Assembly: GCA_036564905.1 (NCBI GenBank)
Contig: DATCOD010000194.1
Coordinates: forward strand, 7,240 to 71,239
Reading direction: 5' to 3'
Origin: Candidatus Limnocylindria bacterium
Lineage (GTDB): Bacteria > Chloroflexota > Limnocylindria > P2-11E
DNA length: 64,000 nt
The notes beneath the pieces are model-generated. The model was given only the letters and a program-made list of their open reading frames with translations. It was not told the origin of the DNA and did not search any database. Shown here one piece after another: positions 41,389 through 60,544 of this stretch. The translations under genes and the position numbers were made by a program. The number at the start of each line of letters is the position of its first letter. Positions within the stretch are counted from its first letter, which is position 1.

Positions 41389-42630
41389 CTAGCCGCGCAG
41401 CTCCATCGAGGCGGCGTGGAACTCCATGCCTTCGTGCTTCGCGATGGCCGAGCCGGCCCGCGCCGCCGCCGCGATGTTCCGGCCCGCGGTCACCTCGGTG
41501 GTCCAGTGGACGAAATCCTCGACCCGCAGCGGCGATGCCCACCGCGCCGTGCCGCCGGTCGGCAGGCAGTGATTGGACCCGGCGACGTAGTCGCCGAACG
41601 CGACGGCCGTCCGGGTGCCGACGAACACCGCGCCCGCGTTCCGCGCTCGCCCGACGAGCCGCGCGGCCCGTGCCCCGGCGAGATGGAGGTGCTCCGGCGC
41701 GGCGAACGCGGCCGCCTCCACCGCCGCTTCGAGCGACGGCGCCCGATACAGGCCGATGGCGCGGCCACCCCCCAGGCGGGAGATGACCGCGCGCACCACC
41801 GCGAGGATCCCGTCGTCGTCGCTGAGCAGCGCGGCGAACGGCCGGCCGCCGTGCTCGGCCTGGGCCTCGAGATCCAGGACGATCGCCGCGGGATCGGCAT
41901 CCTTCGATGCGATGACCACGAGCTCGCTCGGTCCCTGGAGCGCGTCGATGCCGACATCCGCGGAGACGAGCCACTTCGCCGCGGTGGTGTACGCGTTGCC
42001 CGGCCCGACGATCTTGTCGACGGCGTCGAGCGTCTTCGTGCCGTACGCGAGCGCCGCGACGGCCGCCGCTCCGCCGGCGCGGTAGAGACCGCGCGCGCGC
42101 ACCTTCGTCGCAGCGTACGCGAGGGCCGGGTCGATGGCCCCATCGGACGGCATCGGCGACACGAGGACGAGGTCGCCGACCTCCGCGACACGCGCCGGCA
42201 CGCCGATCATCAGCGCGGTCGATGGGTATCCGACGGTCCCGCGCGGGACGCATCCGCCGACGCGCGCGAGCGCTCGGGGCACGAGCACCTCGCTGAACGC
42301 GGCGCCGCGATGCGCGATCCGCTTCGGCTTCTGCGGTCGATGGAAGCCGAGGATCGCGTCATGGGAGCGATCGAGCGCGGAACGCAGCTCGGACGGGCAG
42401 GCCCGCGCCGCCGCGCGGAGCGATCGCGCGTCGATCCAGAGATCCTTCGGCCGCGCGCCCGGGTGGTCGAATCGGCGCACGTTCGCGAGGACCGCGGCGT
42501 CGCCCCGCCGGCGGACATCGGCGACGATCCGTTGCGTCGCCCGGACGACCGCCGCGTCGAAGACCGCGGTGGCACGGCGCCGCGTGACGTCGCGGCGGAA
42601 GCCCGCGAGATCGCCGACGCGCGCGTTCAT
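41389..42630 (-). CDS. hisD: Histidinol dehydrogenase
   Basis: 'KIVGPGNAYTTAAK', 'QGPSELVVIA', 'DLEAQAEHGG', 'VAGSNHCLPTGGTARWASPL'. Alternative start at 42642. Confidence 0.9.
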   Translation of the reverse strand: MNARVGDLAGFRRDVTRRRATAVFDAAVVRATQRIVADVRRRGDAAVLANVRRFDHPGARPKDLWIDARSLRAAARACPSELRSALDRSHDAILGFHRPQKPKRIAHRGAAFSEVLVPRALARVGGCVPRGTVGYPSTALMIGVPARVAEVGDLVLVSPMPSDGAIDPALAYAATKVRARGLYRAGGAAAVAALAYGTKTLDAVDKIVGPGNAYTTAAKWLVSADVGIDALQGPSELVVIASKDADPAAIVLDLEAQAEHGGRPFAALLSDDDGILAVVRAVISRLGGGRAIGLYRAPSLEAAVEAAAFAAPEHLHLAGARAARLVGRARNAGAVFVGTRTAVAFGDYVAGSNHCLPTGGTARWASPLRVEDFVHWTTEVTAGRNIAAAARAGSAIAKHEGMEFHAASMELRG

Positions 42631-43268
42631 CGCGCCGCCCATGCTTCGAGCCGGGACGCGAGCGCCGCGATGCGCTCGCGATCGCGCGCGTAGCTCACGC
42701 GATTCGCGATGAGCCGCGCCGTGCAGACCGCGATCTCCTCGATGATCGCGAGCCGGTTCTCCTTGAGCGTCCGGCCGGTGCTGACGAGGTCCACGATCCA
42801 ATCCGCCAGCCCGACCTGCGGCGCGAGCTCGACCGAGCCGCCGAGCTTGATGATCTCCACCTGGATGCCGCGTCCCTGGAAGTGTCGCTCGGCGACCCGC
42901 GGGTATTTCGTCGCGACCTCGAGCGACCCGAGGTGCCGGTACTCGTCGAGGGAACGATCGACCGTGCCCGCCGGTGCCGCCACGACGAAGCGGCATCGCC
43001 CGTAGCGGAGATCGACGAGCTCGAGGACATCCGCGTCGCTCTCGAGGAGCACGTCCTTGCCGACGATGCCGATGTCGGCCGCGCCGTGGGCCACGTGCGT
43101 GGGCACATCGCCGGGCCGCGCGAGGATGTATTCGACGTCCGTGCCCGGGATGACGAGCCGGCGGCCGCCATCGTCGAGCTCGTCCGTCGCGAGGCCCGCG
43201 GCCGCGAGCGCGACCTTCGTGTCGGCGAGCAGGGTGCCCTGGGCGAGCGCGATGCGAAGCGCCCTCAC
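42627..43268 (-). CDS. hisG: ATP phosphoribosyltransferase, short (HisZ-dependent) form
   Basis: 213 aa; 'LRIALAQGTLLADT', 'RPGDVPTHVAHGAADIGIVGKDVL', 'DLVSTGRTLKEN'. No C-terminal regulatory domain. GTG start overlaps the hisZ stop. Confidence 0.85.
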   Translation of the reverse strand: MRALRIALAQGTLLADTKVALAAAGLATDELDDGGRRLVIPGTDVEYILARPGDVPTHVAHGAADIGIVGKDVLLESDADVLELVDLRYGRCRFVVAAPAGTVDRSLDEYRHLGSLEVATKYPRVAERHFQGRGIQVEIIKLGGSVELAPQVGLADWIVDLVSTGRTLKENRLAIIEEIAVCTARLIANRVSYARDRERIAALASRLEAWAAR

Positions 43269-44455
43269 CGCGGCCCGCCGGTCAGCGCCGCGATGACCGC
43301 TTCGAGCTCGCGCGCGACCCCTTCGTACTCCACGTGCCCGTCGTCGATCACGCGGGCGCGGCGGACATCCTGGCCCGCGCCCTCCGCGATATCGCCGATC
43401 GCGACCGCGATGCCGGCGCCACGCAGCGCGACCGCGACCCGGAGCGTCGTCGCGTCGTCGACGTGCGGCGCGAGGAGCAGGAGCGGCGACTCGGCCTGCG
43501 CCTGCCACCCCGCGGCGACGAGGGCCTGGTGCAGATGGGGGACCGCGATCCCGAAGCCCGTCGCCGGTCGATCGGCGCCGAACCGGGCGAGGAGGCCGTC
43601 GTACCGTCCACCGGCCGCGATCGGGAATCCGAGATCCGCGACGGTGACCTGGAACACCACGCCGGTGTAATACGGGAGCGCCGGAACGAGCCCGAGGTCG
43701 AACCGGACGGCGCCACCGGCGCCGGCCGCCTCGAGGAGCGGCCGAAGGGCATCGAGCGTGTCGAGCGCGCTCTGCGACGCCGCGGGCGCGCCGGCGCGGG
43801 CGCCGGCGAGATCCGCCGACCGGTGGCGAAGGCCGCGCTCGAGCGCCGCGCCACGAGCGGCGCTCAGGCCCGCCGCGCGCGCGAGCGACAGCGTGCCGAC
43901 CAGATCCCCGCTGCGCGCCGCGGCGCTCACCCCCGCGCGCGCATCGGCCGGGAGCTCCGCGATGAAGCCGTCGAGGAAGCCGACATGACCGATGTCGATA
44001 TCCGGTGCGAGCAGCCCGCAGCGCGCGAGCGCGTCGGCGAGCAGCGCGATGACCTCGGCGTCCGCGCGCAGGGTCGCGTCGCCGATCAGCTCGACGCCCG
44101 CCTGGTCGTATTCGCGCTCCGATCCACGCATGGAGGCCTCTTCGCGGAAGATCGGCGCGAAGTACGCGAGCCGCAGCGTCGCGTCGGCTTGCCGGTAGCG
44201 CTGCGCGACCACGCGCGCCACCGCGGTCGTGACATCGGGACGGAGCGCGAGCAGCTGACCATCCCGATCGAGGAACCGCAGCGTGCGCCGCTCGTCCACC
44301 GTGATCGCGCCCTGCGCGAACTCCACCGTCGGCGGCTCGAGCGGCACGTAGCCGTAGCCGGCGAACGCGTTCATCAGCGTGCGCTCGATCACGTGAAGCT
44401 CGCGCGCCTCCGTGGGCAGGATGTCGCGGAAGCCGCGGGGGAGCGCGTTCTTCAC
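43265..44455 (-). CDS. hisZ: ATP phosphoribosyltransferase regulatory subunit (HisRS paralog)
   Basis: 'LPRGFRDILP' and 'YFAPIFREE...REYDQAGVELIG' are class II aaRS-like core motifs. No anticodon-binding domain. Lies directly upstream of the short hisG. Confidence 0.8.
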   Translation of the reverse strand: MKNALPRGFRDILPTEARELHVIERTLMNAFAGYGYVPLEPPTVEFAQGAITVDERRTLRFLDRDGQLLALRPDVTTAVARVVAQRYRQADATLRLAYFAPIFREEASMRGSEREYDQAGVELIGDATLRADAEVIALLADALARCGLLAPDIDIGHVGFLDGFIAELPADARAGVSAAARSGDLVGTLSLARAAGLSAARGAALERGLRHRSADLAGARAGAPAASQSALDTLDALRPLLEAAGAGGAVRFDLGLVPALPYYTGVVFQVTVADLGFPIAAGGRYDGLLARFGADRPATGFGIAVPHLHQALVAAGWQAQAESPLLLLAPHVDDATTLRVAVALRGAGIAVAIGDIAEGAGQDVRRARVIDDGHVEYEGVARELEAVIAALTGGPR

Positions 44456-45267
44456 GCGGGCTGCGGGAAGGCGTCGACGCGTTCGAGGCCTCCCACCGCT
44501 GCGCGAAGCTCGTGGAGCGCGCGGATCCGCGCATCCGGGACGATCGTCCCGGCGGCGCCACCGTTCGTCCGGTCGAGCCAGATGCTGCGCAGCCCGGCAC
44601 GCCGCGCGCCCACGACGTCACGCTCAAGGCTATCTCCGACCATCACCGCCTCGGTGCGCTCGACGTCGAGCGCGTCCAGCGCCGCGCGGAAGATCAGCGG
44701 ATCGGGCTTGCCCGCGCCGACCTCGCCTGAGATCACGATCGCGGCGAATCGCGATGCGAGCGTGGTGGCCGCGAGCTTCTCGCGCTGCACGTCCGGCGCT
44801 CCGTTGGTGACGAGGGCGAGCCGGTGATCGCGGCCGACATCGTCGAGCGTCGCCTCGGCCTCGGGGTCGATCGGACACAGGGCCCGGCGCGCCGTGCGAT
44901 ACACCGCCACGAGCTCGTCGGCCAGCGCGCCATCCGTGATGCCCGCGGCCTCGAGTCCGCCGCTCCAGACCGCGCGGCGGAAGCCCGGCACGTACCGGCG
45001 CAGCGCCGCGAGGCCCGGCTGGTCGCCGGCGAACTCACCCCAGAGCGCCTCGCCCCACCAGATCCCCAGCGCATCCGCGTACGCGAACACTTCCGAGGAG
45101 CGGAAAAGTGCCTCCGCCGTCTCACCGGCCGCGACCTGAATGACACCGCCGTCGACCCCGGCCCGGCGGGCGGCGTGCGCGCTCGTCTGCTCCAGCGCAC
45201 GGAGGGTGGCCTCATCTTCGAGCAGCAGGGTGTTGTCGAGGTCGAAGAGGATCGCGCGGATCGGCAT
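44452..45267 (-). CDS. HAD-superfamily (subfamily IA-like) hydrolase, first gene of the his operon
   Basis: 'ILFDLDNTLL' (DxDxT motif I), 'LVTNG' (motif II), 'GKPDP...MVGDSLERDVVGARRAG' (motifs III/IV). Confidence 0.75.
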   Translation of the reverse strand: MPIRAILFDLDNTLLLEDEATLRALEQTSAHAARRAGVDGGVIQVAAGETAEALFRSSEVFAYADALGIWWGEALWGEFAGDQPGLAALRRYVPGFRRAVWSGGLEAAGITDGALADELVAVYRTARRALCPIDPEAEATLDDVGRDHRLALVTNGAPDVQREKLAATTLASRFAAIVISGEVGAGKPDPLIFRAALDALDVERTEAVMVGDSLERDVVGARRAGLRSIWLDRTNGGAAGTIVPDARIRALHELRAAVGGLERVDAFPQPA

Positions 45268-45344: not shown

Positions 45345-45431
45345 ATGCGCTCCGTCGTCCTCGGCATCATCGTTATTGAGTCCCTTATCGGGGGCTTGAA
45401 CGACGCTGGGAGGCGCACCACCACCGCGTAG
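45345..45431 (+). promoter_or_regulatory. Leader peptide ORF 1 (MRSVVLGIIVIESLIGGLNDAGRRTTTA), a Val/Leu/Ile-rich attenuator leader
   Basis: Read directly from sequence. Eight of eleven codons after Met-Arg-Ser encode Val/Leu/Ile. The peptide overlaps the antiterminator segment 'ctgggaggc'. Confidence 0.7.
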
Positions 45432-45457
45432 CGAGAACAGAGACCGGAACCACCAGA

Positions 45458-45486
45458 GACCTCCCAGGACATGGGAGGTCTTTTTG
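45458..45486 (+). terminator. Rho-independent terminator of attenuator 1
   Basis: 'gacctccca ggacat tgggaggtc ttttt' is a perfect 9-bp GC-rich stem followed by a T-run. The 5' half can alternatively pair with 'tgggagg' inside the leader ORF, forming an antiterminator. Confidence 0.7.
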
Positions 45487-45584: not shown

Positions 45585-45779
45585 ATGGATGCCCGACGCG
45601 AGCTGGCCAAGCGACTGGCAAGGCTGGGTATGCACTTCGAGGGCGAGCGCCTCGACCATGCCGAGCGGATCGTCCACGCGCATGTTCCGCATCACACCTC
45701 GCTCACCGACCTGGTCCTCATGACGATCTGCGTCGAGGCCTACCGCAAGAGCGACCTCGACCTGCCGGCCTGGGTCTGA
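45585..45779 (+). CDS. Conserved small protein (64 aa), paralog of the ilvC-leuA intergenic small protein; function unknown
   Basis: 'MDARRELAKRLARLGMHFEGERLDHAERIVHAHVPHHTSLTDLVLMTICVEAYRKSDLDLPAWV'. RBS 'gagaggga' 7 nt upstream. About 50% identical to the 49659-49844 ORF. Confidence 0.65.
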   Translation: MDARRELAKRLARLGMHFEGERLDHAERIVHAHVPHHTSLTDLVLMTICVEAYRKSDLDLPAWV

Positions 45780-45789
45780 ACCGGTAGCC

Positions 45790-46380
45790 ATGGACGATCA
45801 GGCCGGGCGCACGTACGCGATCGCGTTCCTCGGCGAGGCGCGCACGCCGATCAGGACATCGGTGGTGCGGCTCGGCGCGGACGACGATCCGCGGGTCGTC
45901 GCGGAGTCGCTGCGCCACGCGGAGTCCGACCGGCTGAGCGATCCGATCCTGTCGGCGGGCCTAGGCGGGCCTCGGGATCCGGAGCGCTCCCTTCATCTGA
46001 CGGCGCTCCACGCGGAGCAGGCCGTCCGGCTCGGCCGCGCGTTGAACGGTCCCGGGCGCGTCACCGCGTTCGCGGACCTCGGCCCGTACTGCTTCGTGCT
46101 CGGCCGGCCGACGGAGGAGATCCGGATCTTCTGCCGGACGATCCTCGGGCCGCTGGCCGAGAGCGCGCAGCGCGACGAGCTGCGCACGCTCGAGGAATTC
46201 CTCCGGGCCCACGGGAGCGTGAACGCGGTCGCCCGCGCGCTCTTCCTGCACCGGAACACCGTGCGTCAGCGTCTCAAGCGGATCGGCGAGCTCACCGGCG
46301 CCGACCTCGAGGACGCCGACCAGCGCATGCAGCTCTACCTCGCGGTCCTCGGCCAGAACGCCCTGCGGGCGCTGGCGTGA
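45790..46380 (+). CDS. PucR/CdaR-family transcriptional regulator (C-terminal HTH_30)
   Basis: C-terminus 'LRTLEEFLRAHGSVNAVARALFLHRNTVRQRLKRIGELTG' is the PucR-type HTH. Starts 8 nt after the small-protein stop. Confidence 0.7.
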   Translation: MDDQAGRTYAIAFLGEARTPIRTSVVRLGADDDPRVVAESLRHAESDRLSDPILSAGLGGPRDPERSLHLTALHAEQAVRLGRALNGPGRVTAFADLGPYCFVLGRPTEEIRIFCRTILGPLAESAQRDELRTLEEFLRAHGSVNAVARALFLHRNTVRQRLKRIGELTGADLEDADQRMQLYLAVLGQNALRALA

Positions 46381-46460: not shown

Positions 46461-46535
46461 ATGCGGAACCTCGTGGTCGTCGTCCTTATCGGCATCGTCC
46501 TCATTGAGGACGAGGGGAGACGGCTGGGAGGCTAG
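46461..46535 (+). promoter_or_regulatory. Leader peptide ORF 2 (MRNLVVVVLIGIVLIEDEGRRLGG), the ilvB attenuator leader
   Basis: Twelve of fourteen codons after Met-Arg-Asn are Val/Leu/Ile. The stop lies inside the 'ctgggaggctag' antiterminator arm. Confidence 0.75.
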
Positions 46536-46562
46536 CGGCACACACCACGGACCATGCGAGCA

Positions 46563-46593
46563 AGGCCTCCCGGCAACGGGAGGCCTCTTTGTT
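46563..46593 (+). terminator. Rho-independent terminator of the ilvB attenuator
   Basis: 'aggcctccc ggcaac gggaggcct ctttgttg'. The alternative pairing of 'gcctccc' with 'gggaggc' in the leader gives an antiterminator. Confidence 0.7.
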
Positions 46594-46627
46594 GTCCAGG
46601 ACAGAGATGGATGAAGGAGGCACCGCG

Positions 46628-48337
46628 ATGGCGACACTTGCGACGACCGAGCTGCCCGAGGCGAGCACCGTCGTTCACCGCGGCGCCGACCTGGTCTGGC
46701 GGGCCCTCGAGCACGCCGGCGCGGACGTGGCGTTCGGCTACCCCGGTGGCGCGTGCCTGCCGCTGTACGACGCGCTCCCCGATCACCCGCGCGTGCATCA
46801 CGTCCTCGTGCGCCACGAGCAGGGCGCCGCGCACATGGCCGACGGCTACGCGCGCGCGACCGGACGGGTCGGCGTGTGCGTCGCCACCTCCGGCCCCGGC
46901 GCGACCAATCTCGTGACCGGGCTCGCCTGCGCATACATGGACAGCGTGGCGCTGGTCGCGATCACCGGCCAGGTCTCCACGCCGATGATGGGCCGGGACG
47001 CCTTCCAGGAGACCGACGTGCTCGGCATGGTCGGGCCGATCACCAAGCATTCGTTCCTCGTCGAGCGGGTCGAGGACATCGAGCCCACGATCGCGCGCGC
47101 GTTCGAGGTGGCGCGCGCGGGCCGCCCCGGACCGGTGGTGGTCGACATCCCGAAGGACATCCAGCTCCGGACCGCCACGGCGCGCTCCCGCCCGACAGAC
47201 CCGACGACCGCTCCGCAGGGCGCCGACGCGAGCGAGCTCGATCGGGCGGCGGCGCTGCTCGCGTCCGCGCGGCGGCCGGTGATCATCGCCGGCCACGGCG
47301 TGCGCCTCGGGCGCGCCCACCGCGAGCTGCGCGCGCTCGCCGAGCGCATCGACGCGCCGGTCGTGACCACACTGCTCGGCATCGGCGCGATCGCCGAGGA
47401 CCATGCGCTCGCGGCCGGGATGCTCGGGATGCACGGCAGCGCCAACGCGAACCGCATGGTGAACGACGCGGACGTGATCCTGGGCGTGGGGCTGCGCTTC
47501 GACGATCGCGTGACCGGGAAGATCAGCGCCTTCGCGCCGAACGCCAAGATCATCCATGCCGACCTCGACGCGACCCAGATCGGCAAGAACGTGCCCACCG
47601 CGATCGGCATCGTTGCCGACGCGGGAGCGGTGCTGTTCGCGCTCGCCGCCCGCCTCCAGCGCGTGTCGCGGCCGGACTGGTCCGGACGTCTCGCGACCGC
47701 TCGTTCCCGCCCGCGGCTCGCGGCATACGAGGACCGGGTCGAGCTCCCGCCGCGCCTGGTCATCCGCGCGATCCGTGAGACCGCGAGCGACGACGCGTAC
47801 TTCGTCGCCGACGTGGGTCAGCATCAGATGTGGGCCGCGCAGCATCTGCGCCTCACGAACCCGGACCGGTTCCTCACCTCGGGCGGCCTCGGCGCGATGG
47901 GCTATGCCCTGCCGGCCGCGATCGGCGCGCAGATGGGCCGGCCGACGTCAGAGGTGTGGGCCATCGCCGGCGATGGGGGCGCGCAGATGACGTTCCAGGA
48001 GCTCGGGACCGCGGTGCAGGAGCGCACGCCGGTGAAGCTCGCGATCATGAACAACGGCTACCTCGGGATGGTCCGCCAGTGGCAGCAGCTGTTCCACGAC
48101 GGTCGGATCTCACAGACCCCGATCAGCAGCCCGGACTACGTGAAGCTCGCCGACGCGTACGGCGTGCTCGGCATCATGGTCGACCGTCGCGCCGACCTCG
48201 GCCCCTCGCTCGCGCGCGCTCGCGCGCACCAGGGGCCCGTCGTGCTCGACATCCGCATCGAGCGCGAGGCCAACGTGTGGCCGATCGTGCCGCCTGGCGG
48301 CGCGAACGCGGACCTCATCGAAGAGCCGGTCTCGTGA
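46628..48337 (+). CDS. ilvB: Acetolactate synthase (AHAS) large subunit
   Basis: 'GYPGGACLPLYDAL', 'RHEQGAAHMADGYARATGRVGVCVATSGPGATNLVTG', TPP motif 'GDGGAQMTFQELGTA...NNGYLGMVRQWQ'. RBS 'gaaggagg' 8 nt upstream of the ATG. Confidence 0.9.
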   Translation: MATLATTELPEASTVVHRGADLVWRALEHAGADVAFGYPGGACLPLYDALPDHPRVHHVLVRHEQGAAHMADGYARATGRVGVCVATSGPGATNLVTGLACAYMDSVALVAITGQVSTPMMGRDAFQETDVLGMVGPITKHSFLVERVEDIEPTIARAFEVARAGRPGPVVVDIPKDIQLRTATARSRPTDPTTAPQGADASELDRAAALLASARRPVIIAGHGVRLGRAHRELRALAERIDAPVVTTLLGIGAIAEDHALAAGMLGMHGSANANRMVNDADVILGVGLRFDDRVTGKISAFAPNAKIIHADLDATQIGKNVPTAIGIVADAGAVLFALAARLQRVSRPDWSGRLATARSRPRLAAYEDRVELPPRLVIRAIRETASDDAYFVADVGQHQMWAAQHLRLTNPDRFLTSGGLGAMGYALPAAIGAQMGRPTSEVWAIAGDGGAQMTFQELGTAVQERTPVKLAIMNNGYLGMVRQWQQLFHDGRISQTPISSPDYVKLADAYGVLGIMVDRRADLGPSLARARAHQGPVVLDIRIEREANVWPIVPPGGANADLIEEPVS

Positions 48338-48591
48338 CCGACCCGCAGCACACCTTCGAGCTCACGGTCGACGCCGTGCCCGGCGCGATCGAGCGCGTGC
48401 TGTCGGTCGTGCGCCGCAGGCGGCTCGGCCTGCGCTCGTTCCGGGCGGACGCCGGCAGTCAGGGGCAGTGGAACGTCCGCATCGAGGCCGGCGCCGTCCC
48501 AACGGAAGCGGCCCTTGCGCTCAGACAATTCGCATCGCTCATCGACGTTCGCAACGCGCGCCTGTCCGATGGCGATCGCACCGCGAGCTAA
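48334..48591 (+). CDS. ilvN: Acetolactate synthase small subunit, short ACT-only form (85 aa)
   Basis: 'HTFELTVDAVPGAIERVLSVVRRRRLGLRSF' is the ACT domain of IlvN/IlvM. GTGA overlap with ilvB. Confidence 0.65.
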   Translation: MTDPQHTFELTVDAVPGAIERVLSVVRRRRLGLRSFRADAGSQGQWNVRIEAGAVPTEAALALRQFASLIDVRNARLSDGDRTAS

Positions 48592-48609
48592 AGAAAGCAG
48601 GAGGAAGAG

Positions 48610-49659
48610 ATGGCCACCATCTATTACGACAAGGACGCGGATCCGCGGGCGCTGGCCGGCAAGACGATCGCCGTGATCGGCTACGGGAGCCAGGGCCACG
48701 CCCACGCCCAGAACCTGCGCGACAGCGGGCACTCCGTCGTCATCGGCCTGGCCGCCGGCAGCAAGAGCTGGGCGACCGCCGAGCGGGACGGCTTCGACGT
48801 CCGCGAGGTTGCGGACGCCGCGCGCAACGCCGACGTGATCGTCATCCTCGTGCCTGACCCGAAACATCGGTCGGTCTATGAACGGATCGCGCCGTCGCTC
48901 GGGCGCGGGCGGACCATCGTCGTGGCGCACGCGTTCTCCGTCCATTTCAAGGAGATCGTCGCGTCGCCCGACATCGACGTCGTGCTCATCGCGCCGAAGG
49001 CCCCGGGGCACCGGATGCGCGAGCTCTTCGTCGAGGGCAAGGGCGTGCCCGCGCTCGTCGCGGTGCACCAGGACGCCAGCGGCCACGCCAAGCAGACGGC
49101 GCTCGCGTACGCGCAGGCCGTCGGCTCGACGCGCGCGGGCGTCATCCAGACCACGTTCGCGGAGGAGGTCGAGACCGATCTCTTCGGCGAGCAGACGGTC
49201 CTGTGCGGCGGTATCTCCGAGCTGGTGAAGGCCGGTTTCGAGACCCTGGTCGAAGCCGGCTACCAGCCGGAGATCGCGTACTTCGAGTGCCTGAACGAGA
49301 TGAAGCTCATCGTCGACCTCATGTACGAGGGCGGGCTCTCGTACATGCGGTACTCGGTGAGCGACACGGCCGAGTACGGCGACTACGTGTCCGGCAAGCG
49401 GGTCATCGACGCGCGCGTTCGGCAGACCATGCGTGACGTGCTCGCCGAGATCAAGGACGGCAGCTTCGCCAAGCGGTGGATCGCCGAGGCCCGGGCGGGT
49501 GCGCCCGAGCTGCTCGCGACGCGTGCCCGCGAGCAGGACTCCCAGATCGAGCGGGTCGGACGATCGCTCCGCTCGATGATGCCCTGGCTCCCGAAGCGCG
49601 AGTTCGGCCAGCCCGCGGCGCCGGACGCGCCGAAGCGCGAGACCGCGGGGGTCGCGTAA
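48610..49659 (+). CDS. ilvC: Ketol-acid reductoisomerase
   Basis: '[21 protein letters not shown]', 'LVPD', 'GHRMRELF', '[17 protein letters not shown]'. Strong RBS 'gcaggaggaagag'. Confidence 0.95.
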
Positions 49660-49844
49660 TGGAGGCGTTCCGCGACCGGCTCGCGCGGCTCGGCATGCGC
49701 TTCGGCGACGAGCAGCTCGGCCACGCCCACTCGCTGGTCACGCGCTACGGATTCGTCCCGGAGGAGCTCACCGACATCCAGCTCATGACCATCTGCGTCG
49801 AGGCCTACCGCCATCCGGATTCCGACCTGCCGTTGTGGATCTGA
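49659..49844 (+). CDS. Conserved small protein (61 aa), paralog of the 45585-45779 ORF; translationally coupled between ilvC and leuA
   Basis: '[61 protein letters not shown]'. Its ATG overlaps the ilvC TAA (TAATG). Confidence 0.65.
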   Translation: MEAFRDRLARLGMRFGDEQLGHAHSLVTRYGFVPEELTDIQLMTICVEAYRHPDSDLPLWI

Positions 49845-53268
<3,424 letters not shown>

Positions 53269-53272
<4 letters not shown>

Positions 53273-54513
53273 CCAGCACCGTCGCGGTCGCGACGCGATC
53301 CATGACCGTCGCGGACGCGGCCGTGGCCATCGCCGGGCAGGTCGAGCGCACGCCGCTCCTCGCGTCGCCGGATCTGTCCGCGCTCGCGGGCTGCGAGATC
53401 CATCTCAAGCTCGAGAACCTGCAGCGCACCGGTGCGTTCAAGCTGCGCGGCGCGCTCGCCCGGCTCCTCGCGCTCTCCAGCGAGGAGCGCGCGCGCGGCG
53501 TCGTCACCGCGTCCGCGGGCAACCACGGGCAGGGCGTCGCCGTCGGCGCCGCTGCGCTCGGGATCCCCGCCTGCGTCGTGCTCCCGCGCGGCGTGCCGCT
53601 GGCGAAGCTCACCGCGATCCAGCGCGCCGGCGCGGAGGTCGTGATCACCGGGTCGGACTACGACGAGGCGTTCGCCGCGGCGCGCGAGCTCGCCGCGGAG
53701 CGCCGCGCCGTCTACATCCACGCGTTCGACGATCCGGCCGTCATCGCGGGACAGGGGACCGTCGCTCGCGAGATGCTCGAGGACCGCCCCGACCTCGACG
53801 CCATCGTCGTGCCGGTCGGCGGTGGCGGGCTCCTCGCCGGGTCGGCCCTCGCGATCGCCGAGGCCGGCGCGTCCGTCGCGCTCGTCGGTGTCCAGGCCGC
53901 CGGCGCGACCGCGTTCGCCGACGCCGTCCGGAGCGGATCGATCGCCGCGGGCGGCAGCGCCACCATCGCCGACGGCATCGCGGTCCGCCGGCCGGCGGAG
54001 CGTACGGTGGCGATCGCGCGAGCGCACCGGGCGACGATGCGGATCGTCACGGATGAGGCGATCGCGCGCGCGATGGTGCTGCTGCTCGAGCGCCACAAGC
54101 TCCTCGCGGAGGCCGCGGGCGCCGCGGGCGTCGCCGCGCTGCTCGACGGAGCGGCCGAGCTCGCGGGCAAGCGGGTCGGCATCATCGTGAGCGGTGGCAA
54201 CATCGACCCGAACCTGCTCGGGAAGGTCGTGCAGCAGGGCCTCGCGAGCGCGGGCCGCTACCTCGCGTTCCGCACCTGGCTCGACGACCGTCCGGGACAG
54301 CTGCACGAGCTCACCGGCATCCTGGGCGGCGAGCACATCAACATCCTGCACGTCGGCATCCATCGCGTCGGGCCGTACACCGCGCTCGGGCGCGTGGGCC
54401 TCGATGTGATCGTCGATACCCGCGATGCCGCGCACGCCCAGGAGGTCCTGGCACTCGTGCGGCGCTCCGGCTTCCCGGCCGAGCAGCTCATCGACGTCCA
54501 GCCGGAGCGGTGA
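53269..54513 (+). CDS. ilvA: Threonine ammonia-lyase (biosynthetic, single regulatory domain)
   Basis: PLP-Lys '[18 protein letters not shown]', '[10 protein letters not shown]', 'GGGGLLAG', and a C-terminal ACT-like domain. ATGA overlap with ilvD. Confidence 0.9.
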
Positions 54514-55918: not shown

Positions 55919-56520
55919 GAGCCACCTCGCGCGTGACCGGCCGCGCGCTGCCGCTCGACCGCCGCGACGTCGACACCGATCAGATCATCCCGAGCGACTG
56001 GCTGAAGCGCGTCGAGCGCACCGGCTACGGCGCGGGGCTGTTCGCCGCGTGGCGAACGGATCCGGCATTCGCGCTCAACGACCCGCGGTTCGCGGGCGCG
56101 ACCGTCCTGGTGACCGGAGCGAACTTCGGCTGCGGGAGCTCGCGCGAGCACGCGGCCTGGGCGCTCGAGGACTGGGGCTTCCGCGCGATCGTCGCGCCGA
56201 GCTTCGCCGACATCTTCCGCTCGAACTGCCTCGCCGTCGGCCTCGTGCTCGCGGAGCTTCCGGAGGCCGACATCGCGCGCGTGCTCGCGGCGGTCGCGCG
56301 CGACCCATCGATCGAGGTCAGCGTCGACGTCGACCGGCGGATCGTCGAGGTGCCGGCGCTCGGCTACGCCGCGGCGTTCCCGCTGGACGACGCGTCGCGC
56401 GCGCGCCTGCTCGCGGGACAGGACGAGATCGACCTGAGCCTCGCCCACGCGGGCGAGATCGCGAGCTACGAGGCGCGGCGGCACGGGTGGCTGCCGCGCC
56501 TGCGGACCCCGTCGGGCTAG
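55915..56520 (+). CDS. leuD: 3-isopropylmalate dehydratase small subunit
   Basis: '[14 protein letters not shown]' and '[17 protein letters not shown]'. ATGA overlap with leuC. Confidence 0.9.
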
Positions 56521-57410
56521 CGCAGCTCCTTCGCGATCGCGCGCAGCTGCGCGAGCGTGTCGCCGCCGAGCATCTGGAGACAGACGTGGTCCGCGCCGGC
56601 GGCGTGCTGGGCCGCGACCCGGCCGGCGATGCTCCGGGCGTCGCCCGACGCGACGATCGCGTCCATCAGTTCTTCGCTCCCGCCGTCGGCCAGGTCCGCC
56701 TCGCTCCAGCCCAGGCGCCGCAGGTTGTTCGCGTAGTTCTCGAGCGCCAAGTAGTACTTGGTATGCCGTTTGGCCGCGGCGAGGATCTTCTCGCGGTCCA
56801 GGCCGACGACCGCGGCCTGCTCCACCGCGAGCAGCGGCTCGGCACCGAGCGCCTCGCGGGCGACGGCGGTGTGCTCCACCGGCACGAAGTACGGGTGCGC
56901 GCCCAGCGAACGCTCCGCCGCGAGGCGCAGCATCTGCGGGCCCAGCGCCGCCAGCACCCGGGGAGCGGGCGGCTCGTCGCGATTCGGGCCGACGAACGGC
57001 GCCGCGTCCATCGCGTCGAGGTACGCGCGCATGTGCTCCAGCGGCTTCCGGTAGGTGCCGCCCCGGATCGCGACGCTCGGCTTGTGGCTCACGCCGAGGC
57101 CCAGCAGGAACCGGTCGGGATAGGCCTCGCTGAGCGTCTTGGCGCCGTTCGCCATCGCGACCGGATCGCGGGCCCAGATGTTCGCGATGCCGGACGCGAC
57201 GATCAGGGTCTTCGTGGCCGCAAGGAGGATGCCCGCGTGGGCGAAGACCTCTTTGCTGCCCAGCGACTCCTGGATCCACAGGGTCTTGAAGCCCAGCGAT
57301 TCGACCTCGTTCGCGAACCTCCGCGCGTCCGCCGCGGTCATGCGCTCGGGGTCCGCGGACCACACGCCGACGGTGCCCAGCTGCGTTGCGGTCTCGCGTG
57401 CGGTCTTCAT
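56517..57410 (-). CDS. Luciferase-like monooxygenase (LLM) family, probable F420-dependent oxidoreductase
   Basis: Bacterial-luciferase TIM-barrel signatures 'VWSADP...FANEVESLGFKTLWIQES' and 'LGLGVSH'. Confidence 0.7.
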   Translation of the reverse strand: MKTARETATQLGTVGVWSADPERMTAADARRFANEVESLGFKTLWIQESLGSKEVFAHAGILLAATKTLIVASGIANIWARDPVAMANGAKTLSEAYPDRFLLGLGVSHKPSVAIRGGTYRKPLEHMRAYLDAMDAAPFVGPNRDEPPAPRVLAALGPQMLRLAAERSLGAHPYFVPVEHTAVAREALGAEPLLAVEQAAVVGLDREKILAAAKRHTKYYLALENYANNLRRLGWSEADLADGGSEELMDAIVASGDARSIAGRVAAQHAAGADHVCLQMLGGDTLAQLRAIAKELR

Positions 57411-57433
57411 CCGATGCGCGCATTCTCCCATCC

Positions 57434-58357
57434 GTGCGGCCATTCCGCTTCGCGATCACGACCTCCCGCGCCGGGTCCGGCCCGGAGTGGCGTGCGAAGG
57501 CCCGCCGGATCGAGGAGCTCGGCTACGACACCCTCCTGCTGACCGACCACATCACCTCGCAGCTCGCCCCGGTCCCCGCCCTGGCCGCGGCGCTCGAGGC
57601 GACGACCCGGCTGCGTGTCGGCAGCTACGTCTTCGCGAACGATTACCGCAATCCGTTCATGCTCGCGAAGGAGGTCGCCACGCTCGACGTGCTGTCCGGC
57701 GGGCGCGTCGAGTTCGGGATCGGCGCGGGGTGGCACGCGCGCGACTACGAGATGCTCGGCATCCCGTACGACGCGCCGGCGACCCGGGTCTCGCGGATGA
57801 TCGAAGCGGTCCGGCTCATCGACCGGCTCTTCGTCGAGGACACGGTCGACGCGAGTGGCCGCTACTACACGGTCCGCGGCGCGAAGCTGCTCCCCAAGCC
57901 GGTCCAGCGGCCACGGCCGCCGCTGATGATCGGCGGCGGCGGCCCGCGGATGCTCCGTTTCGCGGCGGAGCACGCGGACATCGTCGCGCTCAACCCGCAG
58001 TTCAGCGCGGACGGCCAGCCGGTCGTCTCCGACCTCACGACCGGCGCGACCGAGCGGAAGCTCGAGCGGCTACGCGCGGAGGTCGGCGCGCGGCTCGCCG
58101 AGGTGGAGCTGAACGTGTTCATCGTCGACGCGGGCGTGACCGATGAGCCGCGTTCGCGGTGGGACGCGCTGGCCACCCGCCTGAAGGGCGCGGCCGCACA
58201 GCTGGTGGACTCGCCGTACTTCCTCTACGGGTCGACCGCGGAGCTGAAGCGGCAGCTCCTCGCGCGCCGCGAGCGCCTCGGGATCACGTACATCGGGTTG
58301 CCGGAGCAGGCGATGGAGCCATTCGCGCCGCTCGTCCGGGAGATGCGCGGGGTCTAG
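57434..58357 (+). CDS. Luciferase-like monooxygenase (LLM) family, probable F420-dependent oxidoreductase
   Basis: 'FRFAITTS...ELGYDTLLLTDH', 'EFGIGAGW', 'RPPLMIGGGGPRMLRFAAEHADIV'. Divergent from the preceding LLM gene. Confidence 0.7.
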   Translation: MRPFRFAITTSRAGSGPEWRAKARRIEELGYDTLLLTDHITSQLAPVPALAAALEATTRLRVGSYVFANDYRNPFMLAKEVATLDVLSGGRVEFGIGAGWHARDYEMLGIPYDAPATRVSRMIEAVRLIDRLFVEDTVDASGRYYTVRGAKLLPKPVQRPRPPLMIGGGGPRMLRFAAEHADIVALNPQFSADGQPVVSDLTTGATERKLERLRAEVGARLAEVELNVFIVDAGVTDEPRSRWDALATRLKGAAAQLVDSPYFLYGSTAELKRQLLARRERLGITYIGLPEQAMEPFAPLVREMRGV

Positions 58358-58490
58358 GCGGATCCGTGGCGCCGCAGGTACGTCACCACCCGGTACGCGG
58401 AGAGCGCGAAGATCCACGCGGCGATCACGGCGACGCCCCACTGAACGTGCCGACGATGAGCCAGAGCAGGAGCCCGCCCACCTCGCGGTC

Positions 58491-60539
58491 CTAGATCCCG
58501 TAGCGCTCGGGCGTCCAACGCAGGCGCAGCTCGCTCGGCGGCGCCATGTATCCGAGCAACGCCGACGAGGCGACCACGGCCGGGCTCGCGAGATAGCCCT
58601 CGCCCCCGACGCCCATGCGGTTCTGCCAGTTCCGGTTGAACGACGTGATCGCGCGCTGGCCCTGCGCCAGCGCGTCGTCGCCCTGTCCGAAGCACGGGCC
58701 GCACCAGCTCATCCGGATCTCGGCACCGACCGAGCGCAGGACATCGGCGACCGACTCGCCGCCGAGGCGCGCGTCCGGCCGCTCGATCGCGTCCTTCACC
58801 GAGCCCGAGCCGGGGAAGACGACGAAATCCGTCGCCGCCTTCGTGTGGCCGGCGTCGCGCGCGCCCCGGACCACGAGGGCGGCCTGGAGCAGATCGTCGT
58901 AGCTCCCGTTCGTGCACGAGCCGATGTACGCCTTGTCGAACGCGAGGTGCTCGCTCGCAACGGCCTCCGCGGCGAACGCGTTGCCCGGCGAGAAGGGCTT
59001 CGCGATCATCGGCACGATCCCGGAAAGGTCCAGCGTCTCGTCGATCTCGTAGCGCGCGTCCCGACCGGGCCGCACGAGCGGGTAGGGGAGCGCGATGCCC
59101 ATCTTCCGGTACCAGGCGGCGGTGATCTCGTCCGCGGCGAAGATGCCGTTCTGCGCCTCGCCCTCGGCCATCATGTTCGCGATCGTGTTGCGATACGCGA
59201 TCGGCAGCTGGACGCGCTCGTCCACGAATTCGACGGACATGCCCTGCGACTGCGCGGTGCCCCAGCGCTCGAGGAGCGCCAGCACGATGTCCTTCCCGCT
59301 CACCCATGGCTGCAGGGCCCCGGTAAGCACGACGCGGCGCGCCTTCGACAGCGTCGTGAACACGTAACCGGTGGCCCAGCCGAAGCCGAGCGTCGTCGAG
59401 CCGACGCCGATGCCGACCGCGCCGTAGGCGCCGTACGCGCGCGAGTGCGAGTCCGCGCCGGCGACGAACGATCCGGGATGCACGAGCCCCTGCTCGGGGA
59501 AGTAGAAGTGGAAGATCCCGTCTCCCGGGGTCGCGTAGTACGGCGTTCGGATGCCGAACTTCTCCGCGAAGGCCTTCCCGATCGCCGTCTGCTTGTCGTC
59601 GGCCTCCTTGCGGGTGAACACGAAGTGATCGTTCGCCACCGCGATCTGCCTCGGGGCGATGGTGTCGCCGCCGGTGATCTGATTGAACGTGTGGATCGAG
59701 AACGGCGCGGTCCCGTCCGACGCCGGCAGCAGATCGGCGTACACGCGGAGCGTCGTGCCGGGCGTGACGTCGGCGTCCTTGTCGACGCGGTGCGCCCAGA
59801 TGATCCGTTCGGTCGTCGTCATCCGCCGAGCGGTCTCGTCGTCCGGCCATTCGATCTTCGGCTGCCGCCGCACCGAGTCGGCGAACTCGCGCCGGCCGAT
59901 CGTGAAGATCCCGCCCGAGCGGCGGATCTCGTCCTCCTTCGGCGTGAGCGGCTTCGGGTCGTAGGTCGTGCCCTGCGTCTCGTTCGTGAGCCTGCGGCTC
60001 GCGGGCTCGAAGCTGAACGCGTCGCCGTCCTGGGCATCGTCGACCGCGGCGGGCGATTGCACGACCTCGAGGCCGAGATTGAACGCGTTCCGGCGGAAGA
60101 TGTCGCCCATGTTGTCGCCGCACACGATCACCAGCTCGAGGCCCGCCTCCTCGGCGACGGCCTTCAGGCCGGCGGGGCTCATCTCGCGCGAGCTCCCGAT
60201 GGCGAACCGGTCGCCGGCGATCACGAACGTCTCGCCGCCGTGCACGCGCTTTCTGAAATCGGGCATCAGGAATCGGAACGAGCCGGCCTTCCAGCGCTCA
60301 TCGAGCGTATCGAGGCTCTCGGACACGCAGTCCTTGGCCGGAGTGATCTGGTCCGTGTCGATGGCGTCGAGCTTCTTCCCGGGGCGGCGCCCCGACCGAT
60401 CCCAGAAGATCAGCGACGTCCCGCGGATGCGGTGCTCTGAACGCGCGGCTTCGGGTGCGGCCGCGCGCCGCTCGATGTCCGCGGCGGTGACGCCCGGGAG
60501 GAGCTTCGCGGGCGCGATGCGATGGCGCACGTCGGTCAC
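58491..60539 (-). CDS. Aconitase-family hydro-lyase with fused LeuD-like swivel domain (N-terminal) and LeuC-like catalytic domain (C-terminal), 682 aa
   Basis: Swivel 'LDAIDTDQITPA...HGGETFVIAGDRFAIGSSREMSPAGL'; catalytic 'FVAGADSHSRAYGAYGAVGIGVGSTTLGF', 'YIGSCTNGSYDDL', 'MSWCGPCFGQGDD', 'FNRNWQNRMG'. GTG start 5 nt after the upstream stop. Confidence 0.8.
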   Translation of the reverse strand: MTDVRHRIAPAKLLPGVTAADIERRAAAPEAARSEHRIRGTSLIFWDRSGRRPGKKLDAIDTDQITPAKDCVSESLDTLDERWKAGSFRFLMPDFRKRVHGGETFVIAGDRFAIGSSREMSPAGLKAVAEEAGLELVIVCGDNMGDIFRRNAFNLGLEVVQSPAAVDDAQDGDAFSFEPASRRLTNETQGTTYDPKPLTPKEDEIRRSGGIFTIGRREFADSVRRQPKIEWPDDETARRMTTTERIIWAHRVDKDADVTPGTTLRVYADLLPASDGTAPFSIHTFNQITGGDTIAPRQIAVANDHFVFTRKEADDKQTAIGKAFAEKFGIRTPYYATPGDGIFHFYFPEQGLVHPGSFVAGADSHSRAYGAYGAVGIGVGSTTLGFGWATGYVFTTLSKARRVVLTGALQPWVSGKDIVLALLERWGTAQSQGMSVEFVDERVQLPIAYRNTIANMMAEGEAQNGIFAADEITAAWYRKMGIALPYPLVRPGRDARYEIDETLDLSGIVPMIAKPFSPGNAFAAEAVASEHLAFDKAYIGSCTNGSYDDLLQAALVVRGARDAGHTKAATDFVVFPGSGSVKDAIERPDARLGGESVADVLRSVGAEIRMSWCGPCFGQGDDALAQGQRAITSFNRNWQNRMGVGGEGYLASPAVVASSALLGYMAPPSELRLRWTPERYGI

Positions 60540-60544
60540 CGCGC

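What the first reader, a model, noticed from the sequence alone, without database searches (positions are those of the whole stretch)
45585..45779. Conserved 64-aa protein of unknown function downstream of attenuator 1 (paralog of the ilvC-leuA intergenic ORF)
MDARRELAKRLARLGMHFEGERLDHAERIVHAHVPHHTSLTDLVLMTICVEAYRKSDLDLPAWV shares the pattern RLARLGM-F-E-L-HA...LTD--LMTICVEAYR--D-DLP-W with the 61-aa ORF at 49659-49844 (~50% identity). It has a good RBS and is followed 8 nt later by the PucR-type regulator. Two diverged copies, both embedded in BCAA gene context, argue that it is a real BCAA-related small protein. It could be a regulatory or allosteric accessory, for example one that compensates for the truncated IlvN.
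Basis: seen in the sequence. Interest (0 to 1): 0.75.

Follow-up and report, generated by a model that had tools for sequence, protein, structure and literature searches.

The report
Stand-alone copy of a leucine-enzyme subdomain
Two small genes in the branched-chain amino-acid operon of an uncultured soil Chloroflexota bacterium encode real, conserved 61-64-residue proteins; they are free-standing copies of the three-helix "accessory subdomain II" of isopropylmalate synthase, so they are probably small add-on regulators of that enzyme family, not partners of acetolactate synthase.

Summary
ORF1 (45585-45779, 64 aa) and ORF2 (49659-49844, 61 aa) are 55% identical paralogs (E 7e-20). Both are genuine protein-coding genes: orthologs occur in at least 35 Chloroflexota (Ca. 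Limnocylindria) assemblies, dN/dS is 0.15-0.19, and out-of-frame controls give values above 2.

The ORF2 type always follows ilvC and usually precedes leuA. The ORF1 type always follows a Val/Ile/Leu-rich leader-peptide attenuator, and in about 10 genomes it is the only gene that attenuator controls.

The most likely function is inferred, not shown: a starvation-induced accessory-domain mimic that docks on IPMS-type enzymes.

The parts
45585..45779 (+). sORF1: 64-aa acidic three-helix protein, a stand-alone homolog of IPMS accessory subdomain II. It is the first gene after attenuator 1.
49659..49844 (+). sORF2: 61-aa paralog (55% identity). Its ATG overlaps the ilvC stop (TAATG), and leuA starts 3 nt after its stop.
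45345..45431 (+). Leader peptide 1, MRSVVLGIIVIESLIGGLNDAGRRTTTA (10 of 15 consecutive residues are Val/Ile/Leu). It controls sORF1.
   Evidence: A homologous leader (MRSxVLGIVVIELLIGG..DAGR..) lies upstream of sORF1 in all 23 loci with enough upstream sequence, whatever follows sORF1.
45455..45486 (+). Intrinsic terminator of attenuator 1: a 12-bp G+C-rich hairpin followed by TTTTT. An alternative pairing uses the upstream GCUGGGAGGC segment.
   Evidence: Sequence. RNA fold with and without the 3' arm. A T-run lies 16-38 nt upstream of sORF1 in nearly all orthologous loci, against about 100 nt here.
45790..46380 (+). Neighbour: a 196-aa PucR-type regulator (C-terminal HTH_30 only), 10 nt after sORF1.
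   Evidence: Pfam HTH_30, E 2e-23. It follows sORF1 in the window and 8 of the related loci, and is absent there in the others.
46461..46596 (+). Attenuator 2: leader peptide MRNLVVVVLIGIVLIEDEGRRLGG plus the terminator at 46563-46586 with its T-run. It lies ahead of ilvB and controls the operon that contains sORF2.
46589..49659 (+). Neighbours ilvB (46589-48337), ilvN with an ACT domain only (48334-48591) and ilvC (48610-49659).
   Evidence: Pfam.
49848..51602 (+). Neighbour leuA, the long (TIGR00970-type) isopropylmalate synthase, with its own complete accessory and regulatory domains.
   Evidence: HMGL-like 41-318, IPMS_D2 337-401, LeuA_dimer 430-562. TIGR00970 scores 783 bits. The sORF profile does not hit it.

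Best explanation
sORF1 and sORF2 are two paralogous genes for a small (58-66 aa), acidic, three-helix protein specific to Limnocylindria. The family arose by duplication of the 3' end of a gene for a short, regulatory-domain-less 2-isopropylmalate synthase (IPMS). It corresponds to accessory subdomain II, the helical module that in IPMS dimers sits on the catalytic barrel of the partner chain, is needed for activity, and relays leucine feedback.

The family has since been kept under purifying selection as a free-standing protein inside the BCAA regulon.
- sORF2 is made together with IlvC and LeuA from the attenuator-2 operon.
- sORF1 is made when ribosomes stall on the Val/Ile/Leu-rich leader of attenuator 1, that is, when BCAAs are scarce.

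Proposed mechanism (inferred, not shown): the free subdomain docks on an IPMS-family enzyme (long LeuA, the short IPMS, or the homocitrate-synthase-like enzyme). It binds at or next to the surface normally used by the enzyme's own subdomain II. This shifts the open/closed and feedback-inhibited equilibrium, most plausibly keeping the enzyme active during starvation.

My probabilities for each step:
- real translated gene, about 0.95
- homology to IPMS subdomain II, about 0.9
- membership of the BCAA-starvation regulon, about 0.85
- action on an IPMS-type enzyme, about 0.3-0.35
For: Real gene:
- 109 clusters of close homologs.
- About 25 further 50%-identity clusters of 61-82 aa.
- dN/dS of 0.15 and 0.19, against more than 2 in the off frames.

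Homology to IPMS subdomain II:
- The A1 profile found P0141 at E 2.3e-4 in 1.84 billion proteins. P0141 is the C-terminus of a short IPMS; it matches N. meningitidis IPMS 3rmj residues 322-367 at E 4.7e-7 and Pfam HCS_D2.
- The A2 HMM hits residues ~333-388 of the 390-400-aa Limnocylindria IPMS at 37-48 bits.
- hhalign gives 97.9%, E 4.7e-13, over 57 columns, and 96.6% against P0198.
- All 54 distinct sORFs hit the same region by sensitive BLASTP, at 34-52% identity.

Regulon membership:
- Every sORF2-type copy directly follows ilvC. It precedes leuA, ilvD, leuC, an aminotransferase-leuCD-leuA set, or the short IPMS itself, with overlapping stop and start in L033 and L044.
- Every sORF1-type copy follows the BCAA leader.
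- In about 10 loci sORF1 is monocistronic. It sits between a divergent leuB-like gene and a convergent gene, a few kb from an aconitase-like plus HMGL-like pair.

Role of the parent domain:
- The accessory domain caps the active site of the other chain.
- Truncations that remove it impair catalysis.
- Subdomain II contacts relay Leu inhibition (PMC9860122).

Features suggesting a partner-binding surface:
- Helix 3 (LMTICVEAYR) is conserved on all faces, and the conserved C-terminal tail is predicted to be disordered. This is inference.
Against: - No interaction was tested; the tools give no complex prediction.
- All IPMS-family enzymes seen next to the sORFs have their own subdomain II, so nothing obviously needs complementing.
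- Some copies lie next to ilvB or ilvD with leuA elsewhere (L009, L037, L042, L043), so the partner could be another BCAA enzyme.
- The Pfam models HCS_D2 and IPMS_D2 do not detect the sORFs.
- A profile search of PDB sequences found nothing.
- Foldseek E-values are not significant.
- One default BLASTP pair found nothing.
- The AF2 models have only moderate confidence (pLDDT 72).
Confidence: 0.4

Rival explanations
1. The small protein is an accessory or regulatory partner of another BCAA enzyme, such as AHAS (IlvB with the ACT-only IlvN), IlvC or IlvD. The IPMS-derived fold has been re-used as a generic adaptor. This includes the first reader's idea of compensation for a truncated IlvN.
For: sORF1 lies directly before ilvB in L009, L011, L012, L014, L019 and L037. 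sORF2-type copies are always coupled to ilvC, and some precede ilvD. IlvN is ACT-only.
Against: The proteins have no similarity to ACT or ALS_ss_C domains. ACT-only AHAS small subunits work without a helper in other bacteria; this is established knowledge (E. coli IlvN and IlvM) and was not tested here. The only detectable relatives are IPMS subdomains.
Confidence: 0.2
2. It works in transcription control, as a co-factor or anti-factor of the short PucR-type regulator encoded 10 nt downstream of sORF1. Together they would form a two-protein switch for the ilv-leu operon.
For: The 10-nt sORF1-PucR spacing is conserved in L002, L013, L018, L020 and L022, as in the window (14-22 nt in L021). PucR here lacks the usual N-terminal sensor domains.
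Against: About 15 loci have sORF1 without an adjacent PucR. PucR sits directly behind the same leader without sORF1 in L024 and L029. sORF2 and the single-copy deep-branching members are never next to PucR. The proteins are acidic (net charge 0 to -6), and no HTH family matches.
Confidence: 0.1
3. The ORFs are decaying remnants of a former short IPMS gene, or merely spacer or uORF sequence that couples translation of flanking genes. The peptide itself would have no function.
For: The family clearly derives from the 3' end of an IPMS gene. sORF2 is wedged between ilvC and leuA with overlapping or near-overlapping signals.
Against: dN/dS is 0.15-0.19, with variation concentrated at third codon positions. 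ORF length, start and stop are intact in 54 distinct sequences. Helix 3 is more conserved than in the parent domain. The family was duplicated, and monocistronic copies keep their own attenuator.
Confidence: 0.03

Closest known systems
Accessory subdomain II of 2-isopropylmalate synthase, methylthioalkylmalate synthase and homocitrate synthase (PDB 6e1j, 4ov9, 3fig, 3rmj; C-terminal part of Pfam HCS_D2 PF22617; TIGR00973 positions ~332-385)
   Different: It is free-standing, with no TIM barrel, no subdomain I and no GK(L/H)SGR linker motif. Helix 3 has its own near-invariant motif, LMT(I/V)(C/A)VEAY(R/G). The acidic residue two positions before the conserved Gly is a nearly invariant Arg in the sORFs. 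That residue is Asp345 in N. meningitidis IPMS, which pairs with Arg35 of the partner barrel in the Leu-bound state (PMC9860122), and it is Glu in the short Limnocylindria IPMS. Pfam models do not detect the family.
MicroProteins (miPs) of plants and animals, and dominant-negative protein fragments in bacteria (PMC9638782, PMC9245647)
   Same: A small single-domain protein evolutionarily derived from an interaction domain of a larger multidomain protein. It would be expected to act by binding the parent protein family.
   Different: Known miPs mostly target transcription factors in eukaryotes. Here the parent is a metabolic enzyme in a bacterium, the gene is under a leader-peptide attenuator, and binding has not been shown.
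HisZ, the HisRS-derived regulatory subunit of short ATP phosphoribosyltransferase (PMC9734150; a hisZ gene lies at 43265-44455 in this window)
   Same: A stand-alone protein, derived by duplication from another enzyme, that serves as an allosteric or accessory subunit in amino-acid biosynthesis.
   Different: HisZ is a full-length paralog of about 390 aa with a proven role. The sORF is a single 60-aa subdomain with no experimental data.
AHAS small subunits IlvN, IlvH and IlvM
   Same: Small proteins encoded in ilv operons that modulate a BCAA enzyme.
   Different: They have an ACT (beta-alpha-beta-beta-alpha-beta) fold, whereas the sORFs are all-helical. There is no sequence or structural similarity.
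Naturally regulatory-domain-less IPMS isoforms (MAM synthase 6e1j; banana IPMS splice isoform, PMC12994207; the 390-aa Limnocylindria IPMS P0145)
   Same: The parent lineage of the sORF ends exactly at subdomain II. This shows the module is an autonomous C-terminal unit in this family.
   Different: Those are whole enzymes. The sORF keeps only the last ~55 residues.

Membership tests
IPMS/HCS accessory subdomain II (homology) | Statistically significant sequence similarity to the post-catalytic three-helix module of IPMS-family enzymes | tested here: met
   HMM scores of 37-48 bits on residues ~333-388 of 390-400-aa IPMS. hhalign 97.9%, E 4.7e-13, and 96.6%. P0141 at E 2.3e-4 in 1.84 billion proteins. 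All 54 distinct sORFs hit by BLASTP at 34-52% identity.
IPMS/HCS accessory subdomain II (homology) | Match to the curated Pfam domain models (HCS_D2 PF22617, IPMS_D2 PF22615) at or near the gathering score | tested here: not met
   No hit at E<=1 for the two window proteins or at E<=10 for 50 family members. HCS_D2 covers only the first ~25 residues of the matching region: residues 285-357 in P0145, against 333-388.
IPMS/HCS accessory subdomain II (homology) | Three-helix fold that superposes on subdomain II of solved IPMS-family structures | tested here: met
IPMS-family enzyme (LeuA, CimA, HCS) | HMGL-like TIM-barrel catalytic domain in the same polypeptide | tested here: not met
   The ORFs are 58-66 codons long with their own start and stop in all 54 distinct copies. 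They are not enzymes.
AHAS small subunit (IlvN/IlvH) | ACT domain (with or without ALS_ss_C) | tested here: not met
   No ACT or ALS_ss_C hit. The prediction is all-helical.
Leader peptide or regulatory uORF of an attenuator | Short ORF enriched in the regulatory codons, overlapping alternative RNA hairpins, with weak constraint on the peptide outside the codon run | tested here: not met
   The true leaders lie upstream (45345-45431 and 46461-46535). The sORFs show selection along the whole peptide (dN/dS 0.15-0.19) and have no run of Val/Ile/Leu codons like the leaders'.
MicroProtein (miP) type regulator | Small single-domain protein related to a domain of a larger protein | tested here: met
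MicroProtein (miP) type regulator | Acts by binding the parent protein or its partners | not testable with these tools
   No complex prediction or interaction data are available.
Partner of the PucR-type regulator | Consistent co-occurrence with, and adjacency to, the regulator | tested here: not met
   Adjacent in the window and 8 of the related loci only. sORF1 occurs without PucR in about 15 loci, and PucR occurs behind the same leader without sORF1 in L024 and L029.
Helix-turn-helix DNA-binding protein | HTH family match and a basic surface | tested here: not met
   No HTH model hit. Net charge is 0 to -6, median -2.

The most novel reading that the evidence does not exclude
A bacterial "microProtein" for metabolism. 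A 60-residue module, copied from the enzyme's own inter-domain relay (IPMS subdomain II), is placed under a BCAA leader-peptide attenuator. It is produced when Val/Ile/Leu run short and binds IPMS-type enzymes to override or retune leucine feedback inhibition. This would add a protein-level derepression step to classical attenuation. The charge reversal at the Asp345-equivalent contact (Arg in the sORFs) would then be the feature that stops it from locking the enzyme in the inhibited state.
Probability: 0.25. Interest if true: 0.8.

Novelty: new variant of a known kind. Interest (0 to 1): 0.58.

Why it matters
If the proposed role is right, it would be a rare bacterial case of a metabolic enzyme regulated by a free-standing copy of one of its own subdomains. 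That subdomain II is exactly the piece whose role in IPMS catalysis and allostery is still debated. A natural, soluble, trans-acting subdomain II would be a ready tool to probe that mechanism. It might also help de-regulate leucine, isobutanol or isopentanol production.

Independently of mechanism, three results stand:
- The work assigns an evolutionary origin and a regulon to a previously unannotated "hypothetical protein" family that is common in abundant, uncultured soil Chloroflexota.
- It shows that partial gene duplication can create a selectable small protein.
- It documents a monocistronic small-protein gene under a leader-peptide attenuator.

Tried and rejected
- **Pfam and NCBIfam scans of both proteins and of 50 family members.** No family was found. 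The only trace was a weak (E 0.2) ORF2 hit to TIGR00973 positions 332-385, which turned out to be the right lead.
- **Profile searches of PDB sequences with A1 and A2.** Only chance hits at E>0.3.
- **Default BLASTP of the L033 sORF against its neighbouring enzyme.** No alignment. Sensitive settings and profiles were needed.
- **Rfam over 40-56 kb.** No known RNA family, so the attenuators are not catalogued elements.
- **Long repeat proteins in the representative search.** P0108, P0117, P0123, P0134-P0140 and P0142 match only profile positions ~16-44, several times each (motif ...RxVERxGxTPESLRDLSVSL...). I judged these to be repeat-driven partial matches, not homologs.
- **Derivation from the adjacent long LeuA.** Rejected, because the sORF profile does not hit the window's leuA.
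- **A split IPMS lacking subdomain II that the sORF would complete.** Rejected. Long LeuA, the short IPMS and the HMGL-like enzyme all extend through that region.
- **A read-through sORF2-LeuA fusion for structure prediction.** Not run. The tool returns no coordinates or inter-chain confidence, so an interface could not be read.

Full report
**1. Observation**

The two ORFs exist as described.
- ORF1 runs 45585-45779 and encodes MDARRELAKRLARLGMHFEGERLDHAERIVHAHVPHHTSLTDLVLMTICVEAYRKSDLDLPAWV.
- ORF2 runs 49659-49844 and encodes [61 protein letters not shown].
- They are 55% identical, E 7e-20, and no further copy lies in the window.
- The ORF2 ATG overlaps the ilvC stop (TAATG), and leuA starts 3 nt after the ORF2 stop.
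- ORF1 is followed after 10 nt by a 196-aa protein with only a PucR-type HTH_30 domain.

The window has 71% G+C. Names attached to near-identical database proteins place it in Candidatus Limnocylindria, Chloroflexota.

**2. They are real genes**

- Word-indexed searches found 51 and 58 clusters of close homologs, all 49-78 aa and all "hypothetical".
- An exhaustive profile search of 1.84 billion representatives found about 25 further small-protein clusters.
- A pattern scan of one genome per GTDB species returned 44 loci. All are from Chloroflexota/Limnocylindria MAGs, except two contigs binned as Saccharimonadales that look mis-binned. That scan used one peptide pattern, so the taxonomic limit is provisional.
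- Codon analysis shows purifying selection on the peptide. dN/dS is 0.15 for 21 ORF1 orthologs and 0.19 for 17 ORF2 orthologs, and variation is concentrated at third positions. The same DNA in the other frames gives 2.1-2.8.
- Fifty-four distinct copies keep the ORF, start and stop.

**3. What the protein is**

No Pfam or NCBIfam model covers it, and PDB sequence profiles find nothing. Several independent lines nevertheless converge on accessory subdomain II of 2-isopropylmalate synthase (IPMS).

- (a) ORF2 gave a weak hit to TIGR00973 (leuA_bact) positions 332-385.
- (b) The profile search picked up P0141 at E 2.3e-4. This 78-aa fragment is the C-terminus of an IPMS: it matches N. meningitidis IPMS 3rmj 322-367 at E 4.7e-7 and Pfam HCS_D2.
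- (c) In loci L033 and L044 the small ORF is immediately followed, with overlap, by a 390-aa IPMS that has the HMGL-like barrel and HCS_D2 but no regulatory domain. It matches IPMS models only up to position ~385 of 516.
- (d) The family HMM hits the last ~55 residues (about 333-388) of 120 such enzymes at 37-48 bits.
- (e) hhalign gives 97.9% probability, E 4.7e-13, over 57 columns, and 96.6% against one enzyme.
- (f) With sensitive BLASTP, all 54 distinct small proteins hit that same region at 34-52% identity. Window ORF1 versus P0178 is 46% identical over 54 aa.
- (g) Two AlphaFold models, one per paralog, predict a three-helix bundle with a disordered C-terminal tail (pLDDT 72.4 and 71.6).

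Caveats:
- Foldseek is not significant for so small a domain.
- One default BLASTP pair failed.
- The sORF profile does not hit the neighbouring long LeuA. The source was therefore the short, leuA_bact-type enzyme of the lineage, not the adjacent gene.

**4. Genomic anatomy and regulation**

In the window the order is:
- HAD hydrolase (minus strand)
- leader peptide 1 (45345-45431) and terminator (~45455-45486)
- sORF1
- PucR
- leader peptide 2 (46461-46535) and terminator (46563-46586)
- ilvB, ilvN (ACT only), ilvC
- sORF2
- leuA (long form), ilvD
- ilvA-like gene (53269-54513), leuC, leuD
- a convergent luciferase-like gene

.

Across the 44 loci, sORF2-type copies always follow ilvC. They precede one of the following:
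- leuA, in most loci
- ilvD
- leuC
- an aminotransferase-leuC-leuD-leuA set
- the short IPMS

sORF1-type copies always follow a conserved leader, MRSxVLGIVVIELLIGG..DAGR.. This holds in all 23 loci with enough upstream sequence. Downstream of sORF1 there are three arrangements:
- PucR-ilvB
- ilvB directly
- in about 10 loci, nothing co-directional

In that last group sORF1 is a monocistronic unit. It lies between a divergent isopropylmalate/isocitrate-dehydrogenase gene and a convergent luciferase-like gene. A fused LeuD/LeuC-like aconitase and a homocitrate-synthase-like HMGL enzyme lie about 4.5 kb away. The window has the same luciferase-like, aconitase-like and HMGL-like genes beyond leuD. 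The ilv-leu block is therefore either inserted in or lost from the site right after sORF1.

The same leader type also sits directly before PucR without sORF1 (L024, L029). Some assemblies carry three copies.

Inference: sORF1 is expressed when BCAA-charged tRNAs are limiting, and sORF2 is made in step with IlvC and LeuA.

**5. Mechanism**

In IPMS dimers the accessory domain (subdomains I and II) of one chain caps the active site of the other. Truncations that remove part of it impair catalysis. Subdomain II contacts with the partner barrel (Arg35-Asp345, Arg32-Asp375) and with the regulatory domain (Arg470-Glu353) transmit leucine inhibition (PMC9860122).

Aligning via P0141 and 3rmj (chain numbering minus 6), N. 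meningitidis Asp345 corresponds to Glu in the short Limnocylindria IPMS. It corresponds to a nearly invariant Arg (R13 of sORF1) in the small proteins.

Helix 3 carries a family-specific, almost invariant motif, LMT(I/V)(C/A)VEAY(R/G). The conserved tail PDxDLPxW(I/V) is predicted to be disordered. Both features fit a partner-binding surface, but this is inference.

The proteins are acidic, and no HTH family matches, which argues against DNA binding.

My best reading is a trans-acting mimic of subdomain II. It would bind IPMS-type enzymes and retune activity or feedback during BCAA limitation. This step is not demonstrated, and I give it 0.3-0.35.

Rivals:
- another BCAA enzyme as partner (0.2)
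- PucR co-factor (0.1)
- non-functional remnant (0.03, contradicted by selection)

The remainder is an unknown role.

**6. Comparison and novelty**

The family is homologous to IPMS subdomain II but is not an IPMS: it has no barrel, and it fails the Pfam models. Functionally it most resembles eukaryotic microProteins (PMC9638782) and enzyme-derived regulatory subunits such as HisZ (PMC9734150). Full-text searches found no description of a stand-alone IPMS subdomain or of this family. I classify it as a new variant of a known kind: a domain-derived small accessory protein, here from a metabolic enzyme and under attenuator control.

**7. Verdict**

- Interest is moderate to high (0.58). Origin and regulon are well supported and unexpected. 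The mechanism is open but directly testable.

Noticed in passing
window 45345-45486 and 46461-46596: Two tandem leader-peptide attenuators have different Val/Ile/Leu-rich leaders: MRSVVLGIIVIESLIGGLNDAGRRTTTA and MRNLVVVVLIGIVLIEDEGRRLGG. Each is followed by a G+C-rich hairpin and a T-run. Neither matches any Rfam family. Both leader types are conserved across Limnocylindria loci. The first gates sORF1/PucR and the second gates ilvBNC-sORF2-leuA-ilvD.
   Followed up: partly
window 45790-46380: The PucR-type regulator is only 196 aa. It has the C-terminal HTH_30 domain but none of the usual N-terminal PucR or GGDEF-like sensor domains. In related genomes it sits directly behind a type-1 BCAA leader (L024, L029), so its own synthesis appears to be attenuator-controlled.
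   Followed up: partly
window 48334-48591: The AHAS small subunit is 85 aa with an ACT domain only and no ALS_ss_C. Its start overlaps the end of ilvB.
   Followed up: no
window 56517-61759: Beyond leuD lies a second 2-oxoacid chain-elongation-like cluster. It has two overlapping, divergent luciferase-like monooxygenase genes (56517-57443 minus, 57386-58357 plus), an aconitase-like gene on the minus strand (a fused LeuD/LeuC-like protein of ~682 aa in related loci), and a 404-aa HMGL-like, homocitrate-synthase-like gene (60545-61759 minus). In about 10 related genomes sORF1 directly abuts this cluster.
   Followed up: partly
L033 6183-7355, L044 6183-7355; proteins P0145-P0263: Limnocylindria carry a 390-400-aa 2-isopropylmalate-synthase-like enzyme that ends at subdomain II and lacks the leucine-binding regulatory domain. 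In L044 it is followed by a threonine-dehydratase-like gene, so it may be a feedback-insensitive IPMS or a citramalate synthase.
   Followed up: partly
L006 (DATJHW010000147.1) and L035 (DATLEG010000183.1): Two contigs deposited as Candidatus Saccharimonadales carry Limnocylindria-type sORF, ilv and leu genes at 60-89% identity to the window. They are probably mis-binned contigs.
   Followed up: no
proteins P0108, P0117, P0123, P0134-P0140, P0142: Long proteins of 465-1602 aa match profile positions ~16-44 many times, through tandem ~37-aa repeats such as ...SLELARRIVERYGETPESLRDLSVSL.... They look like TPR-like repeat proteins. I treated them as repeat-driven matches, not homologs.
   Followed up: partly
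window 41389-45267 (minus strand): A histidine-biosynthesis block with hisD, hisG(short) and hisZ, followed by a HAD-family hydrolase, runs divergently from attenuator 1. hisZ is itself an example of an enzyme-derived regulatory subunit.
   Followed up: no
window 51590-51602; L033 ~7340-7355: The long LeuA ends in ...TQPVA and the unrelated short IPMS ends in ...PQPVA or ...ALPVA. The shared tail may reflect constraints from the overlapping start signals of the downstream gene, not homology.
   Followed up: no
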